Shown: positions 1 to 5,100 of the stretch, one piece after another
How the letters are laid out: every line of letters begins with the position of its first letter
How positions within the stretch are numbered: the first letter of the stretch is position 1
Virus record (IMG/VR): IMGVR_UViG_2529292919_000006
Strand: one strand, 5' to 3'
From: a virus
Lineage: Duplodnaviria > Heunggongvirae > Uroviricota > Caudoviricetes
Length of the DNA stretch: 5,844 nt
Program-made: the position numbers and the translations under genes
Notes under the pieces: generated by a model
What the model saw: the letters and a program-made list of their open reading frames with translations, nothing else
What the model was told of the DNA's origin: nothing
Databases searched by the model: none

Positions 1-233
<233 letters not shown>

Positions 234-249
234 TCATCCGTCGTTGACA

Positions 250-318: not shown

Positions 319-508
319 ACTGCAGGCGCTGCGTCAGGCGCGCCTTGATTTATTAACCGGTAAACGGGTGGTGTCTGTCCAGAAAGATGGTCGCAGAATT
401 GAATATACGGCGGCTTCTCTGGATGAGCTTAACCGGGCGATCAATGATGCGGAGTCGGTACTGGGGACAACCCGGCGTCGCCGTCGTCCGCTGGGAGTGA
501 GGTTATGA
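302..508 (+). CDS. W: Head-tail joining / head completion protein W (gpW family), 68 aa
   Basis: 68-aa ORF containing LTGKRVVSVQKDGRRIEYTAASLDEL and an RRRR-rich C-terminus, same length as and clearly similar to lambda gpW as I recall it. GGAGG at 292-296 precedes ATG 302. Stop TGA 506-508 overlaps the portal ATG (ATGA). Confidence 0.9.
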   Translation: MVTVAELQALRQARLDLLTGKRVVSVQKDGRRIEYTAASLDELNRAINDAESVLGTTRRRRRPLGVRL

Positions 509-2097
509 AACGAACGCCTGTCCTGATTGATGTGAACGGCGTTCCGCTTCGTGAGAGTCTCAGCTACAACGGGGGCGGTGCAGGATTTGGCGGGCAAATG
601 GCGGAGTGGTTGCCACCGGCGCAGAGTGCCGATGCGGCCCTGTTGCCCGCGTTGCGTCTGGGCAATGCCCGTGCAGATGATCTGGTGCGCAATAACGGGA
701 TAGCGGCCAATGCGGTGGCCCTGCATAAGGATCATATTGTCGGGCATATGTTTCTGATCAGCTACCGTCCGAACTGGCGCTGGCTGGGGATGCGGGAGAC
801 TGCAGCAAAAAGTTTTGTCGATGAGGTGGAGGCGGCCTGGTCGGAATACGCCGAAGGGATGTCTGGCGAGATCGACGTGGAAGGGAAACGCACGTTTACG
901 GAATTTATCCGTGAAGGTGTGGGCGTTCATGCGTTTAACGGCGAAATCTTTGTGCAGCCGGTCTGGGATACGGAGAGCACGCAACTGTTTCGTACGCGTT
1001 TTAAAGCCGTGAGTCCGAAACGGGTGGACACGCCAGGACACGGTATGGGGAACCGTTTTCTGCGGGCCGGTGTGGAGGTCGATCGATATGGTCGTGCCGT
1101 TGCGTACCATATCTGTGAGGATGATTTTCCGTTCTCCGGGAGTGGACGATGGGAACGGATCCCGCGTGAACTTCCCACCGGGCGTCCGGCCATGCTGCAT
1201 ATTTTCGAGCCGGTGGAGGACGGGCAGACCCGTGGGGCCAATCAGTTTTACAGCGTAATGGAACGGCTGAAGATGCTCGATTCCCTGCAGGCAACACAGC
1301 TTCAGTCGGCCATTGTGAAAGCCATGTATGCAGCGACGATTGAAAGTGACCTTGATACCGAAAAGGCCTTTGAATATATCGCCGGTGCGCCGCAGGGGCA
1401 GAAGGATAATCCGCTTATTAATATTCTGGATAAGTTCTCCACCTGGTATGACACGAATAGCGTGACGCTGGGTGGTGTCAAAATTCCGCACCTTTTCCCC
1501 GGTGATGATCTGAAACTTCAGACTGCGCAGGATTCAGACAATGGATTTTCGGCGCTTGAACAGGCGCTGCTGCGGTATATCGCCGCCGGTCTTGGCGTTT
1601 CCTACGAACAGTTGTCCCGTGATTACTCGAAGGTCAGTTATTCAAGTGCCAGGGCCTCTGCCAATGAGTCGTGGCGCTATTTTATGGGGCGGCGAAAATT
1701 TATTGCGGCCCGGCTGGCCACGCAGATGTTTTCCTGCTGGCTGGAAGAGGCACTTCTTCGGGGGATTATCCGTCCGCCACGGGCGCGTTTTGATTTTTAT
1801 CAGGCGCGATCAGCCTGGTCACGGGCAGAGTGGATTGGTGCCGGAAGAATGGCCATTGACGGGCTCAAGGAGGTTCAGGAATCGGTGATGCGCATTGAGG
1901 CCGGACTGAGCACGTATGAGAAAGAGCTGGCGCTGATGGGCGAGGATTATCAGGACATTTTCCGCCAGCAGGTCAGGGAATCTGCTGAGCGACAAAAAGC
2001 CGGACTCTCACGTCCGGTGTGGATAGCGCAGGCGTATGAGCAGCAGATAGCGGAGAGTCGCAGGCCGGAAGAGGAGACAACACCCCGTGAGACGTAA
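505..2097 (+). CDS. B: Portal protein (lambda gpB family), 530 aa
   Basis: 530-aa ORF with long conserved blocks shared with lambda gpB as I recall it (GNARADDLVRNNG, FEPVEDGQTRGAN.FYSVME, LQSAIVKAMYAATIES, LLRYIAAGLGVSYEQLSR, YSSARASANESW.YFMGRRKF, WIG.GRMAIDGLKEVQE, IEAGLSTYEKE). Lambda gpB is about 533 aa. ATG overlaps the W stop. Confidence 0.95.
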   Translation: MKRTPVLIDVNGVPLRESLSYNGGGAGFGGQMAEWLPPAQSADAALLPALRLGNARADDLVRNNGIAANAVALHKDHIVGHMFLISYRPNWRWLGMRETAAKSFVDEVEAAWSEYAEGMSGEIDVEGKRTFTEFIREGVGVHAFNGEIFVQPVWDTESTQLFRTRFKAVSPKRVDTPGHGMGNRFLRAGVEVDRYGRAVAYHICEDDFPFSGSGRWERIPRELPTGRPAMLHIFEPVEDGQTRGANQFYSVMERLKMLDSLQATQLQSAIVKAMYAATIESDLDTEKAFEYIAGAPQGQKDNPLINILDKFSTWYDTNSVTLGGVKIPHLFPGDDLKLQTAQDSDNGFSALEQALLRYIAAGLGVSYEQLSRDYSKVSYSSARASANESWRYFMGRRKFIAARLATQMFSCWLEEALLRGIIRPPRARFDFYQARSAWSRAEWIGAGRMAIDGLKEVQESVMRIEAGLSTYEKELALMGEDYQDIFRQQVRESAERQKAGLSRPVWIAQAYEQQIAESRRPEEETTPRET

Positions 2098-3593
2098 TCT
2101 TTCACACATTATTGCCGCAGCATTCAATGAACCGCTGCTTCTGGAGCCCGCCTATGCGCGGGTTTTCTTTTGCGCGCTCGGGCGCGAGATGGGGGCATCA
2201 AGTCTTTCGGTACCACAACAGCAGGTACAGTTTGATGCTCCCGGAATGCTGGCTGAAACGGACGAGTACATGGCCGGAGGTAAACGACCGGCCCGTGTTT
2301 ACCGGGTGGTGAACGGTATTGCGGTACTGCCGGTGACCGGCACGCTGGTGGCACCGGCTGGGGGGGATGCGGCCATTTTCCGGAATGACTGGCTATGACG
2401 GCATTGTCGCCTGTCTTCAGCAGGCAATGGCAGATAGCCAGGTGCGGGGCATACTGCTGGACATTGACAGTCCGGCGGGCAGGCCGCCGGCGCGTTTGAC
2501 TGCGCTGACATGATTTACCGCCTCCGTCAGCAGAAGCCGGTCTGGGCACTGTGCAATGACACGGCCTGTTCTGCAGCCATGCTGCTGGCGTCGGCCTGCT
2601 CCCGACGGCTGGTTACCCAGACATCCCGTATCGACTCCATTGGCGTGATGATGAGCCATGTCAGCTATGCCGGTCATCTGGCGCAGGCCGGTGTGGATAT
2701 CACGCTGATTTACTCAGGGGCGCACAAGGTGGATGGCAATCAGTTTGAAGCCTTACCGGCAGAGGTTCGCCAGGACATGCAGCAGCGCATTGATGCGGCG
2801 CGCCGGATGTTTGCCGAAAAAGTGGCCATGTTTACCGGTCTGTCTGTTGATGCCGTCACGGGAACAGAGGCCGCCGTTTTTGAAGGTCAGTCCGGCATTG
2901 ATGCCGGGCTGGCGGATGAATTAGTCAATGCGTCGGATGCCATCAGTGTGATGGCCACGGCGCTGAACAGTAATGTCAGAGGAGGCACTATGCCGCAATT
3001 AACTGCAACGGAAGCCGCCGCGCAGGAGAACCAGCGAGTGATGGGGATCCTGACATGCCAGGAAGCGAAAGGACGTGAACAGCTTGCCACGATGCTGGCA
3101 GGACAACAGGGCATGAGCGTTGAACAGGCCCGGGCGATTCTGGCCGCGGCGGCACCGCAGCAGCCGGTGGCATCCACGCAGAGTGAAGCCGATCGCATTA
3201 TGGCGTGTGAAGAAGCGAACGGTCGTGAACAACTGGCGGCAACGCTGGCGGCGATGCCGGAGATGACGGTGGAAAAAGCCCGCCCGATCCTGGCTGCTTC
3301 ACCGCAGGCGGATGCCGGACCCTCACTCCGTGATCAGATCATGGCGACTGGATGAGGCAAAAGGGGCTGAGGCGCAGGCTGAACAGCTGGCTGCCTGCCC
3401 GGGAATGACTGTGGAGAGCGCCCGGGCTGTGCTGGCTGCGGGATCAGGTAAGGCAGAACCGGTCTCTGCATCCACAACCGCCCTGTTTGAACGCATCATG
3501 GCGAACCATTCACCGGCAGCGGTACAGGGTGGCGTGCCACAGACGTCAGCAGACGGTGATGCGGACGTGGAAATGCTCATGGCCATGCCATGA
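2087..3593 (+). pseudogene. C: Head maturation protease / scaffold gene (lambda C-Nu3 homolog, S49-like serine protease N-domain plus Nu3-like scaffold C-domain), interrupted by three frameshifts
   Basis: Homologous protein sequence is continuous only if the frame changes three times. Segment 1 is 2087-~2366 in frame 2 (GTG start, NEPLLLEPAYARVFFCAL ... NGIAVLPVTGTLVAPAGG). Segment 2 is ~2367-2474 in frame 3 (MRPFSGMTGYDGIVACLQQAMADSQVRGILLDIDSP). Segment 3 is 2474-~3349 in frame 2 (GGQAAGAFDCADMIYRLRQQKPVWAL ... GIDAGLADELVN ... DQIMA). Segment 4 is ~3351-3593 in frame 3 (DEAKGAEAQAEQLAACPGMTVESARAVLAA ... EMLMAMP*). The annotated frame stops at 2396-2398 and 3353-3355. Shift 1 is in a G7 run at 2360-2366, shift 2 at 2472-2476, shift 3 at 3347-3350. 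Confidence 0.8.
3035..3503 (+). repeat. Three tandem, diverged copies of a ~47-53 aa scaffold (Nu3-like) motif; lambda gpC/Nu3 has one copy as I recall it
   Basis: Units RVMGILTCQEAKGREQLATMLAGQQGMSVEQARAILAAAAPQ...ADRIMA; CEEANGREQLAATLAAMPEMTVEKARPILAASPQ...RDQIMA; DEAKGAEAQAEQLAACPGMTVESARAVLAAGSGK...FERIMA. Periods are 159, 141 and 157 nt between the conserved IM(A/G) anchors. Copies are diverged at nucleotide level. Confidence 0.7.
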
Positions 3594-3629: not shown

Positions 3630-3977
3630 ATGGTGACGAAAACTATCACTGAACAGCGTGCGGAAGTACGTATTTTTGCCGGTAATGATCCGGCTCATAC
3701 CGCCACAGGCAGCAGCGGGATTTCCTCGGCAACACCGGCACTGACGCCACTGATGCTGGATGAGGCCACCGGGAAACTGGTGGTCTGGGACGGACAAAAA
3801 GCCGGTAGTGCAGTTGGCATACTGGTACTGCCGCTTGAAGGCACAGAGACGGCGCTGACCTATTACAAGTCGGGGACCTTTGCGACGGAGGCAATCCGCT
3901 GGCCTGAAAGTGTGGATGAACACAAAAAGGCCAACGCCTTTGCCGGCAGTGCCCTGAGTCACGCGGCGCTGCCGTAA
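3630..3977 (+). CDS. D: Head decoration protein (lambda gpD family), 115 aa
   Basis: Motifs DPAHTAT, TPLMLD, KLVVWDG, AVGIL, YKSGTF and AFAG match lambda gpD (110 aa) as I recall it. AGGAGG at 3614-3619 sits 10 nt upstream of ATG 3630. Confidence 0.9.
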   Translation: MVTKTITEQRAEVRIFAGNDPAHTATGSSGISSATPALTPLMLDEATGKLVVWDGQKAGSAVGILVLPLEGTETALTYYKSGTFATEAIRWPESVDEHKKANAFAGSALSHAALP

Positions 3978-3984
3978 CACGTTA

Positions 3985-4006
3985 TCAGGCCACCGCGGTG
4001 GCCTGA
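3985..4006. other. Perfect 22-bp GC-rich palindrome TCAGGCCACCGCGGTGGCCTGA in the D-E intergenic region; possible RNA stem-loop or protein binding site
   Basis: The sequence is exactly self-complementary. It lies 8 nt after the D stop (3975-3977) and 29 nt before the E start. It is followed by ACTGATTTCTGAA, which is only a weak U-tract. Confidence 0.5.
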
Positions 4007-4034
4007 CTGATTTCTGAATGAAAGGAACTGATTT

Positions 4035-5063
4035 ATGGGATTGTTTACGACCCGCCAGTTACTCGGTTATACCGAACAAAAAGTGAAATTTCGTGCGCTG
4101 TTTCTGGAGCTGTTTTTCCGCCGTACGGTGAATTTCCATACCGAAGAGGTGATGCTGGACAAGATTACCGGAAAAACGCCGGTGGCGGCCTATGTTTCCC
4201 CGGTTGTTGAAGGAAAAGTGCTGCGTCATCGTGGTGGTGAAACCCGCGTGTTACGTCCGGGCTACGTCAAGCCGAAACACGAATTTAATTACCAGCAGGC
4301 GGTTGAGCGTCTTCCCGGTGAAGATCCGGCTCAGCTGAACGACCCGGCCTACCGTCGTCTGCGTATCATCACTGATAACCTCAAACAGGAAGAGCACGCC
4401 ATTGTCCAGGTGGAAGAAATGCAGGCGGTGAATGCCGTGCTGTATGGCAAATACACGATGGAAGGAGACCAGTTCGAGAAAATTGAGGTCGATTTTGGCA
4501 GGTCGACGAAGAATAACATCACTCAGGGTAGTGGTAAGGAGTGGTCAAAACAGGATCGTGACACGTTCGATCCTACACATGATCTTGACCTCTACTGCGA
4601 CCAGGCCAGCGGTCTTGTGAATATTGCCATTATGGACGGTACCGTCTGGCGTCTGCTGAATGGCTTTAAATTGTTCCGCGAAAAACTGGATACCCGTCGC
4701 GGCTCTAATTCGCAACTCGAAACAGCGGTGAAAGACCTGGGCGCGGTGGTGTCCTTCAAAGGGTATTACGGCGATCTGGCCATTGTGGTGGCAAAAACGT
4801 CTTATGTGGCAGAGGACGGTACCGAAAAACGTTATCTGCCTGAGGGCTCGCTGGTCCTGGGGAATACGGCAGCAGAGGGCATTCGTTGCTATGGTGCCAT
4901 TCAGGATGCGCAGGCGTTGTCCGAAGGTGTGGTGGCCTCTTCCCGTTATCCGAAACACTGGCTGACGGTAGGGGATCCCGCCCGTGAATTTACCATGACG
5001 CAGTCCGCGCCGCTGATGGTGTTGCCGGACCCGGATGAGTTTGTGGTGGTACAGGTGAAATAA
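4035..5063 (+). CDS. E: Major capsid protein (lambda gpE family), 342 aa
   Basis: 342-aa ORF sharing long blocks with lambda gpE (341 aa) as I recall it: KFRALFLELFFRR, YVSPVVEGKVLRHRGGET, PGYVKPKHE, DPAYRRLRII, VEEMQAV.AVLYGKYTMEG, KLDTRRGSNS.LETAVKDLG, GDPAREFTMTQSAPLM. AAGGA at 4022-4026 precedes ATG 4035. Confidence 0.95.
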   Translation: MGLFTTRQLLGYTEQKVKFRALFLELFFRRTVNFHTEEVMLDKITGKTPVAAYVSPVVEGKVLRHRGGETRVLRPGYVKPKHEFNYQQAVERLPGEDPAQLNDPAYRRLRIITDNLKQEEHAIVQVEEMQAVNAVLYGKYTMEGDQFEKIEVDFGRSTKNNITQGSGKEWSKQDRDTFDPTHDLDLYCDQASGLVNIAIMDGTVWRLLNGFKLFREKLDTRRGSNSQLETAVKDLGAVVSFKGYYGDLAIVVAKTSYVAEDGTEKRYLPEGSLVLGNTAAEGIRCYGAIQDAQALSEGVVASSRYPKHWLTVGDPAREFTMTQSAPLMVLPDPDEFVVVQVK

Positions 5064-5070
5064 TCCGTGA

Positions 5071-5100
5071 GCGGGGGCGAAATGCCCCCGTGTCTTTTTT
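5071..5100 (+). terminator. Putative rho-independent terminator / attenuator immediately downstream of the major capsid gene
   Basis: Stem CGGGGGC (5072-5078) / GCCCCCG (5084-5090) with GAAAT loop, then TGTC and T6 (5095-5100). The 4-nt spacer before the T-run makes it less than canonical. Confidence 0.5.

What the first reader, a model, noticed from the sequence alone, without database searches (positions are those of the whole stretch)
2340..2480. Paired +1/-1 frameshifts in the protease domain of the C gene, the first in a G7 homopolymer
With one G fewer in the G7 run (2360-2366), and one base added at 2472-2476, the reading frame is restored and gives a continuous S49-protease-like sequence (...TLVAPAGGMRPFSGMTGYDGIVACLQQAMADSQVRGILLDIDSPGGQAAGAFDCADMIYRL...). 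As it stands, the frame stops at 2396-2398 after 103 codons. Two compensating indels 110 bp apart are unusual. They could be genuine decay, homopolymer sequencing errors, or a phase-variable G tract.
Basis: seen in the sequence. Interest (0 to 1): 0.55.

Follow-up and report, generated by a model that had tools for sequence, protein, structure and literature searches.

The report
Likely sequencing-error frameshifts in prophage protease gene
The broken reading frame in this prophage head-protease gene is really in the deposited sequence, but it is most likely a sequencing or assembly error of one old draft genome (E. coli DEC1D), and the run of seven Gs blamed for it is normal and intact.

Summary
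The window is a whole 5.8-kb draft contig of E. coli DEC1D carrying a phage-21/lambda-type head module.

Alignment to intact relatives moves the first lesion. The G7 run (2360-2366) is the normal in-frame state (CTG GGG GGG = Leu-Gly-Gly). It was never length-variant in 120 viral contigs, and it is unchanged in 332 complete genomes. The extra base is a G at 2350/2351. A G is missing at 2474-2475, and a third frameshift (+G at 3346) lies downstream.

None of the three indels occurs in about 1,870 complete E. coli genomes, and the truncated product is unique among 15 billion proteins. Other draft genomes of the same DEC project (DEC1A, DEC12A, DEC12B, DEC12D) each carry 4-6 different private single-base indels in this module, whereas 122 of 133 other copies carry none. 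Clone-mate DEC1A reproduces the window's synonymous markers but none of its indels.

Verdict: project-specific sequencing or assembly artefact (about 85%), genuine strain-private decay about 12%, phase variation rejected. Low interest.

The parts
2087..3593 (+). C-like gene: S49 head-maturation protease fused to a scaffold domain (homologue of phage 21 gene 5 and lambda C). In the deposited sequence it is split into ORFs 2087-2398, 2367-2513, 2510-3355 and 3312-3593.
   Evidence: After repair it is 501 aa. It is identical to WP_001254032.1 except G183D and K495E. Pfam PF01343 matches at 1.8e-34. phrog_53 'head maturation protease' matches end to end at 1e-225.
2350..2351 (+). First frameshift: one extra G (GG where all intact relatives have a single G; CTGGTG[G]CACC).
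   Evidence: 11 of 11 intact references. No complete E. coli genome has it. The 20-mer is absent from IMG/VR. The resulting 103-aa product is found only in this contig.
2360..2366 (+). G7 run. This is the native in-frame state (CTG GGG GGG = Leu-Gly-Gly) and is not the site of the frameshift.
   Evidence: The same G7 is in intact L001, L002, L006, L008, L011 and L012. Synonymous GGGTGGT or GGGCGGT occurs in L003, L007 and L010. Of 120 IMG/VR loci, 62 have G7, 58 have GGGGGGT and none has a changed length. 332 complete genomes are identical over 2310-2520 apart from the two indels.
2396..2398 (+). Premature TGA stop reached in the shifted frame, between the +1 and -1 indels.
2474..2475 (+). Second frameshift: one G missing (GG where relatives have GGG), inside the codons of the conserved SPGG motif (DIDSPGG).
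   Evidence: The motif aligns with the SPGG of B. subtilis SppA, 3RST. No complete genome has the deletion. Clone-mate DEC1A has the opposite miscall (GGG to GGGG) in the adjacent run of the same CCGGGCGGGC motif.
2634..2634 (+). Private G-to-A substitution (Gly183Asp) in the GSIG motif, which is conserved with SppA.
   Evidence: 1,321 complete-genome records differ from the window only at this base over 2565-2705, and none matches 100%. DEC1A has G.
2990..3593 (+). Nested in-frame scaffold gene (homologue of phage 21 gene 6 and lambda Nu3). It has its own GGAGG ribosome-binding site and an ATG at 2990. It is also broken by the third frameshift.
   Evidence: Phage 21 annotation, scaffolding protein CDS at L003 3404-4006, mapped through the alignment. 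Sequence.
3346..3346 (+). Third frameshift: one extra G (ATGGC[G]ACTGG). The frame then stops at 3353-3355.
   Evidence: No complete genome has it; the best match is 110 of 111 in 661 records.
3570..3570 (+). Private A-to-G substitution (Lys495Glu) near the C-terminus.
   Evidence: DEC1A has A.
1..249 (+). Right end of an IS100kyp (IS21-family) element: the istB 3' end at 1-183 and the terminal sequence ending ...GTTGACA at 249. It abuts the last 68 nt of the terminase large-subunit gene.
   Evidence: No complete E. coli genome has this junction. The DEC1A contig runs through an uninterrupted terminase region here.

Best explanation
The three single-base G indels in the C gene (+G at 2350/2351, -G at 2474-2475, +G at 3346) are most likely consensus errors of the 2012 E. 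coli DEC1D draft assembly, not mutations in the strain. The two private missense changes may be errors too. The real gene is probably an intact 501-codon S49 head-maturation protease with a nested scaffold, like those of E2348/69 and phage 21. The G7 run is a normal Leu-Gly-Gly coding stretch.

Inferred mechanism: the stretch from the portal 3' end through C is present in two near-identical prophage copies in this lineage. It was therefore assembled from few or mixed reads of an indel-prone platform, probably 454 pyrosequencing with Celera Assembler. That would give a poor local consensus.

Shown: the lesions are private, the effect is project-wide, and clone-mates do not reproduce them. Inferred: the platform and the repeat-induced cause.
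For: 1. The window is contig AIEY01000009.1 of E. coli DEC1D.

2. All the lesions are singletons.
- None of about 1,870 complete E. coli genomes carrying this gene has any of the three indels or 2634A.
- The 103-aa truncated product occurs in one contig among 153 billion gene positions and 15 billion proteins.
- Products expected from any single lesion, or from the repaired gene with the private missense changes, are absent. The fully ancestral allele is present on 46 contigs.

3. There is a project effect.
- Of 133 other copies of this module (529 kb aligned), 122 have no private 1-nt indel. All 38 private indels sit in 11 loci.
- Those I could name are DEC1A (5 indels), DEC12A (5), DEC12D (4), DEC12B (6) and E. 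coli 2362-75 (2).
- They break W, portal, C, D or E at different places, and most of the products are again singletons.

4. Clone-mate DEC1A shares 16 of the window's differences from E2348/69, including the portal patch with the synonymous CGC-to-AGG Arg switch. It shares none of the indels, and not 2634A, 3570G or 3812A.

5. DEC1A has its own 5 indels confined to the same 1.7-kb stretch (portal 3' end to C), with more than 6 kb of clean flank. One is an opposite miscall in the very CCGGGCGGGC motif hit in the window.

6. That stretch is two-copy in the related E2348/69 genome, whereas D-FII is single-copy.

7. Outside C, 24 of 25 differences from E2348/69 are synonymous. Only C carries changes unfiltered by selection.

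8. The ratio of 3 indels to 2 substitutions is far from the roughly 1:10 spontaneous ratio in E. coli (established knowledge).

9. A contemporaneous E. coli project from the same centre used 454 Titanium with Celera (PMC3491183).
Against: - No reads were available, so nothing is proven at read level.
- The DEC announcement paper is not held, so the platform is inferred.
- The indels are not classical long-homopolymer miscalls. G7, T6 and all 28 runs of five are correct.
- The prophage has an IS100kyp insertion cutting the terminase gene's 3' end, so real relaxed selection is plausible.
- Two private missense changes, one in a conserved motif, accompany the indels. Substitution errors are less typical of consensus sequences.
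- One truncated product of DEC12B is also seen in Logan assemblies, so not every DEC indel need be an artefact.
- I looked up only loci that had indels, so the fraction of DEC contigs free of them is unknown.
Confidence: 0.85

Rival explanations
1. Genuine, strain-private pseudogenisation. After the IS100kyp insertion disabled the terminase, the prophage became defective, and its C gene picked up three real +/-1 indels and two missense mutations in DEC1D.
For: - The IS end abuts a truncated terminase gene.
- C carries only changes unfiltered by selection: 3 frameshifts, G183D in a conserved motif and K495E. Neighbouring genes show almost only synonymous differences.
- Long homopolymers are correctly called.
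- The window's other private substitutions (221, 3812, 4163) are transitions and look like ordinary divergence.
Against: - No lesion is shared with any other assembly, including clone-mate DEC1A.
- If the whole prophage were dead, the other 4 kb of head genes should also show indels or missense changes. They show none.
- The excess of indels over substitutions is atypical.
- Four other DEC assemblies show the same kind of private, multiple indels at other positions. This rate, about 1 per kb, is biologically implausible, and 122 other copies have zero.
Confidence: 0.12
2. The G7 run is a phase-variable (contingency) tract that switches the protease gene on and off by slipped-strand mispairing.
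For: A G7 run lies 10 nt downstream of the first frameshift. Removing one G restores the frame arithmetically.
Against: - The tract has 7 bases in the window and in every intact relative, and it is in frame there.
- None of 120 IMG/VR loci has G6 or G8. About half carry a synonymous interruption, GGGGGGT.
- 332 complete genomes have the identical G7.
- The real extra base is at 2350/2351.
- A G7 is expected by chance about 1.4 times in this composition.
Confidence: 0.01
3. Programmed ribosomal frameshifting or another recoding event reads through the interrupted frames.
For: Lambdoid phages do use a programmed -1 frameshift elsewhere, at G/GT in the tail genes (established knowledge).
Against: - All intact relatives encode one uninterrupted 501-codon ORF.
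- The shifts have different signs at three unrelated, non-slippery sites.
- A stop codon follows the first shift within 46 nt.
Confidence: 0.01

Closest known systems
Phage 21 gene 5 / gene 6 (capsid protease-scaffold and nested scaffold; OL657228, M81255), homologues of lambda C / Nu3
   Same: - Same gene order: W, portal, C with nested scaffold, D, E, FI, FII.
- 98% DNA identity over the gene.
- The internal ribosome-binding site and ATG for the nested scaffold are conserved at window 2990.
   Different: The window copy has three 1-nt indels and two private missense changes. Phage 21 has GGGTGGT where the window has G7; the two are synonymous.
Prophage S49 family peptidases WP_001254032.1 (E. 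coli O111:H2 12A) and WP_001254036.1 (EPEC E2348/69)
   Same: - 99.6-99.7% DNA identity, including the same G7 run.
- The repaired window protein equals WP_001254032.1 except G183D and K495E.
   Different: Those genes are intact 501-codon ORFs, and their prophages have an uninterrupted terminase gene.
Signal peptide peptidase SppA (Bacillus subtilis, PDB 3RST/4KWB; MEROPS family S49)
   Same: Homologous protease fold over residues 77-289. The SPGG, nucleophile-Ser (AxS) and GS(I/L)GV motifs are shared.
   Different: The relationship is distant (E 1e-16, below NCBIfam SppA cut-offs). The phage protein carries an extra C-terminal scaffold domain. The residue aligned with SppA's catalytic Lys is Tyr in this alignment.
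Single-base indel errors in draft assemblies of the DEC collection (DEC1A, DEC12A, DEC12B, DEC12D) and E. coli 2362-75
   Same: Private +/-1 indels, several per contig, in the same head module, giving singleton truncated proteins. DEC1A's cluster is in the same portal-3'/C stretch.
   Different: The positions differ in every assembly. Those contigs also show classical homopolymer length errors (A5 to A6, T5 to T4, G5 to G4), which the window lacks.

Membership tests
Lambda C / phage 21 gp5-type S49 head-maturation protease with nested scaffold | Significant match to Peptidase_S49 (PF01343) and to the phage head-maturation protease family | tested here: met
   PF01343 scores 119 bits against a 24.9-bit cut-off on the repaired protein, and 121 bits on fragment 2510-3355. 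phrog_53 matches at 1e-225, residues 1-501 against profile positions 4-583 of 583.
Lambda C / phage 21 gp5-type S49 head-maturation protease with nested scaffold | Position between the portal gene and the decoration and major capsid genes | tested here: met
   Gene order is gpW, portal, C, HDPD (D), Phage_cap_E, FI, FII. The order is the same in L001-L003.
Lambda C / phage 21 gp5-type S49 head-maturation protease with nested scaffold | In-frame internal start for the scaffold protein (Nu3 / gp6) | tested here: met
   GGAGG followed by an ATG at 2990 corresponds to the annotated phage 21 scaffolding CDS. Its frame is broken at 3346.
Lambda C / phage 21 gp5-type S49 head-maturation protease with nested scaffold | Uninterrupted reading frame with active-site motifs (SPGG, nucleophile Ser, GSxGV) | tested here: not met
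   In the deposited sequence there are three frameshifts. SPGG is destroyed by the -G at 2474-2475, and GSIG reads DSIG. The feature is met only after hypothetical repair.
Phase-variable homopolymeric tract (contingency locus) | Tract length differs between strains or copies | tested here: not met
   None of 120 IMG/VR loci has a changed length. 332 complete genomes have an identical G7. 11 of 11 references have 7 nt.
Phase-variable homopolymeric tract (contingency locus) | The frame switch is caused by the tract itself | tested here: not met
   The tract is in frame in intact genes. The extra base lies at 2350/2351, 10 nt upstream.
Genuine pseudogene of a decaying prophage | Lesions inherited, meaning shared by clone-mates or other isolates | tested here: not met
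   The lesions are absent from DEC1A, from complete genomes and from the 15-billion-protein collection. By contrast, a real C-terminal frameshift allele (490 aa) is seen on 97 contigs.
Genuine pseudogene of a decaying prophage | Relaxed constraint across the co-dependent module | tested here: not met
   W, portal, D and E show 24 synonymous and 1 conservative difference and no indel.
Sequencing/assembly indel artefact | Lesions private to one assembly, and the same project's other assemblies show independent lesions of the same kind | tested here: met
Sequencing/assembly indel artefact | Reads or resequencing contradict the consensus | not testable with these tools
   No read data are accessible. 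No Logan assembly carries the DEC1D-specific products.

The most novel reading that the evidence does not exclude
The indels are real, and the stretch from the portal 3' end through the C gene of this prophage is a local hotspot of +/-1 frameshift mutagenesis. Clone-mates DEC1A and DEC1D would then have accumulated different clusters of single-base indels independently, for example through error-prone repair synthesis during decades of stab storage.
Probability: 0.04. Interest if true: 0.5.

Novelty: not a real feature. Interest (0 to 1): 0.05.

Why it matters
It matters mainly as a caution. The 2012 DEC-collection drafts appear to carry about 0.5-1 spurious single-base indel per kb in prophage head modules. 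These create singleton 'truncated' proteins in public databases (for example EHU32225.1, EHU14515.1, EHX19496.1 and EHX47646.1) and could be misread as pseudogenes, phase variation or prophage decay. If the lesions were real, they would only show one more defective lambdoid prophage, which is common in E. coli.

Tried and rejected
- **Phase-variable G7:** rejected. The length is constant in all relatives, and the shift lies elsewhere.
- **Classical long-homopolymer miscall:** rejected for this contig. All 30 runs of 5 nt or more match E2348/69.
- **Functional compensation by the +1/-1 pair:** rejected, because a TGA lies between them.
- **Programmed frameshift:** rejected, because relatives have a single ORF.
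- **Independent copies of the lesions:** none found. I searched complete E. coli genomes, IMG/VR by exact 20-mer, 153 billion gene positions, and exact look-ups of all single-lesion and repaired products.
- **Verifying the sequencing platform:** the DEC announcement (doi 10.1128/JB.00426-12, PMC3370608) is not held, and accession searches found nothing. Only an indirect statement from a contemporaneous paper of the same centre was found.
- **First pure-Python all-against-all alignment:** timed out and was replaced by blastn.
- **DNA-level repeat search in the scaffold region:** found nothing.

Full report
**What the window is.** The 5,844-bp window is the entire contig AIEY01000009.1 of assembly GCA_000249115.2. 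The source names its truncated product EHU32225.1 'peptidase, S49 family protein [Escherichia coli DEC1D]'.

It carries the following features:
- the right end of an IS100kyp (IS21-family) element at 1-249
- the last 68 nt of a terminase large-subunit gene
- gpW at 302-508
- the portal gene at 505-2097
- a broken C gene at 2087-3593
- the decoration gene D at 3630-3977
- the major capsid gene E at 4035-5063
- FI and FII

The closest relatives are prophages of EPEC E2348/69 and O111:H2 strain 12A (99.6-99.7% identity over C) and phage 21 (98%).

**Checking the observation.** The G7 run at 2360-2366, the 103-codon ORF ending at TGA 2396-2398, and a missing base at 2474-2475 are all real.

Base-by-base alignment to 11 intact relatives relocates the first lesion:
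- Intact genes read ACG CTG GTG CAC CGG CTG GGG GGG ATG. They contain the same G7, in frame, coding Leu-Gly-Gly.
- The window has one extra G at 2350/2351 (CTGGTG[G]CACC).

A third frameshift, +G at 3346 (ATGGC[G]ACTGG), stops the frame at 3353-3355. It also breaks the nested scaffold gene that starts at 2990. The +1/-1 pair cannot be functionally compensating because a stop codon lies between the two indels. A run of G>=7 is expected about 1.4 times in DNA of this composition.

**What the gene is.** With all three indels reverted, the product is 501 aa. It is identical to WP_001254032.1 except G183D (2634) and K495E (3570).

Supporting matches:
- Peptidase_S49 well above threshold
- phrog_53 'head maturation protease' end to end
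- B. subtilis SppA over residues 77-289

The missing G at 2474-2475 falls in the codons of the conserved SPGG motif. G183D falls in the GS(I/L)GV motif shared with SppA.

**The G tract is not variable.**
- Over 2310-2520, 332 complete-genome records match the window except for exactly the two indels, so they carry G7. No record of 1,877 has either indel.
- In IMG/VR, 120 loci matching CACCGGCT-G6-N(0-2)-ATGCGGCC all have a 7-nt tract. Of these, 62 are G7 and 58 are GGGGGGT.
- Phage 21 and others have synonymous GGGTGGT or GGGCGGT.

Phase variation is therefore rejected.

**Are the lesions real or artefacts?** They are singletons.
- +G at 3346 and 2634A are absent from complete genomes. The best matches are 110 of 111 in 661 records and 140 of 141 in 1,321 records.
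- The 2350 20-mer is absent from IMG/VR.
- The 103-aa product is on one contig only.
- Exact look-ups of every product expected from a single lesion, or from the repaired gene carrying D183 and/or E495, found nothing. The ancestral allele is on 46 contigs.

The decisive evidence came from the IMG/VR loci.
- Aligning 133 other copies of the module (529 kb), 122 have no private 1-nt indel. All 38 private indels sit in 11 loci.
- Exact look-ups of their truncated products named L126 as DEC1A (5 indels), L024 as DEC12A (5), L070 as DEC12D (4), L107 as DEC12B (6) and L106 as E. coli 2362-75 (2).
- These indels hit W, portal, C, D and E at different positions in each assembly. Most products are again singletons.
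- By contrast, a C-terminal frameshift allele that is evidently real (L095 type, 490 aa) is found on 97 contigs from several sources.

The comparison with DEC1A is the most informative, because it is from the same DEC1 clonal group.
- It shares 16 of the window's differences from E2348/69, including the synonymous portal patch at 1620-1884 with a CGC-to-AGG Arg codon switch.
- It shares none of the window's indels, and not 2634A, 3570G or 3812A.
- DEC1A has its own five indels, all within the 1.7 kb from the portal 3' end to just past C. More than 6 kb of flank is clean.
- One of those indels is GGG to GGGG in the same CCGGGCGGGC motif where the window has GGG to GG.
- In E2348/69 the W-portal-C stretch is present twice, and D-FII once. 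This suggests a repeat-induced poor consensus.
- A contemporaneous E. coli project from the same sequencing centre used 454 Titanium paired-end reads and Celera Assembler (PMC3491183). The DEC announcement itself could not be read.

**Arguments for genuine decay, and why I weigh them lower.**
- The IS insertion would have killed the phage, so decay is plausible.
- C carries only changes unfiltered by selection (3 frameshifts and 2 private missense), while 24 of 25 differences elsewhere are synonymous.
- All 30 homopolymers of 5 nt or more are correct.

Against these:
- A dead prophage should decay everywhere, yet 4 kb of neighbouring head genes show no indel and no private missense change.
- Three indels to two substitutions is far from the spontaneous spectrum.
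- No lesion is inherited.
- The same pattern at about 1 indel per kb in four other DEC drafts cannot be biology.

One caveat remains. A truncated capsid product of DEC12B also appears in Logan assemblies, so not every DEC indel is necessarily spurious.

**Verdict.**
- Sequencing or assembly artefact: about 0.85.
- Genuine strain-private pseudogene: about 0.12.
- Phase variation or recoding: about 0.01 each.

The underlying gene is an ordinary, well-known lambdoid head protease-scaffold gene. Interest is low. The useful outcome is a warning about indel errors and singleton 'truncated proteins' from the DEC drafts.

Noticed in passing
window 3346 (and 2990-3593): A third frameshift (+G, ATGGC[G]ACTGG) lies outside the finding's coordinates. 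It truncates both the C frame and the nested Nu3-like scaffold gene that starts at ATG 2990. No complete E. coli genome has it.
   Followed up: yes
window 2634 and 3570: Two private missense changes in C: Gly183Asp in the GSIG motif conserved with SppA, and Lys495Glu. Both are absent from complete genomes and from clone-mate DEC1A. Whether they are errors or real is unresolved.
   Followed up: partly
window 1-249 / 250: A complete right end of IS100kyp (IS21 family) is inserted 68 nt before the stop of the terminase large-subunit gene. The junction is not found in any of 5,426 complete E. coli genomes, and the DEC1A contig is uninterrupted here. One private A-to-G change at 221 distinguishes it from more than 2,000 IS100kyp copies.
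   Followed up: partly
window 475-558 and 1242-1884 (W/portal): Mosaic patches of purely synonymous differences from E2348/69 (23 sites, plus one S402A), including a double-change Arg codon CGC to AGG at 1651-1653. The 1620-1884 patch is shared with DEC1A. The 475-558 and 1314-1524 patches are not, which suggests recombination between co-resident prophages or a chimeric consensus. The exact portal protein is unique to this contig.
   Followed up: partly
L126 (DEC1A), L024 (DEC12A), L070 (DEC12D), L107 (DEC12B), L106 (E. coli 2362-75): Draft contigs from the same genome project or centre each carry 2-6 private single-base indels that break W, portal, C, D or E, giving singleton truncated proteins in public databases. 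The truncated capsid product of DEC12B is also seen in Logan assemblies.
   Followed up: yes
L095 and relatives (C gene, window-equivalent ~3531): A +A frameshift near the 3' end of C/Nu3 gives a 490-aa product with an altered C-terminus. It is found on 97 contigs, including complete genomes and Shigella dysenteriae, so it is apparently a real, widespread allele.
   Followed up: no
window ~3000-3440 (scaffold part of C); L030: The scaffold region encodes three similar units of about 45-50 aa (…IM.C.EA.GREQLA..LA….M.VE.AR.ILAA…). GenBank M81255 annotates 'Tri boxes' here. One IMG/VR copy (L030) has an in-frame 150-nt deletion that removes one unit. No DNA-level repeat was detected.
   Followed up: partly
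window 5071-5100 and 3985-4016: Terminator-like GC-rich hairpins followed by T-rich sequence sit just after the major capsid gene E (GCGGGGGCGAAATGCCCCCGT + TTTTTT) and after D. They are conserved in E2348/69.
   Followed up: no
L063 (IMG 2526164689), window-equivalent 4784-4933: A 150-nt in-frame deletion in the major capsid gene E lies between TGTGGTGG direct repeats in one IMG/VR contig.
   Followed up: no
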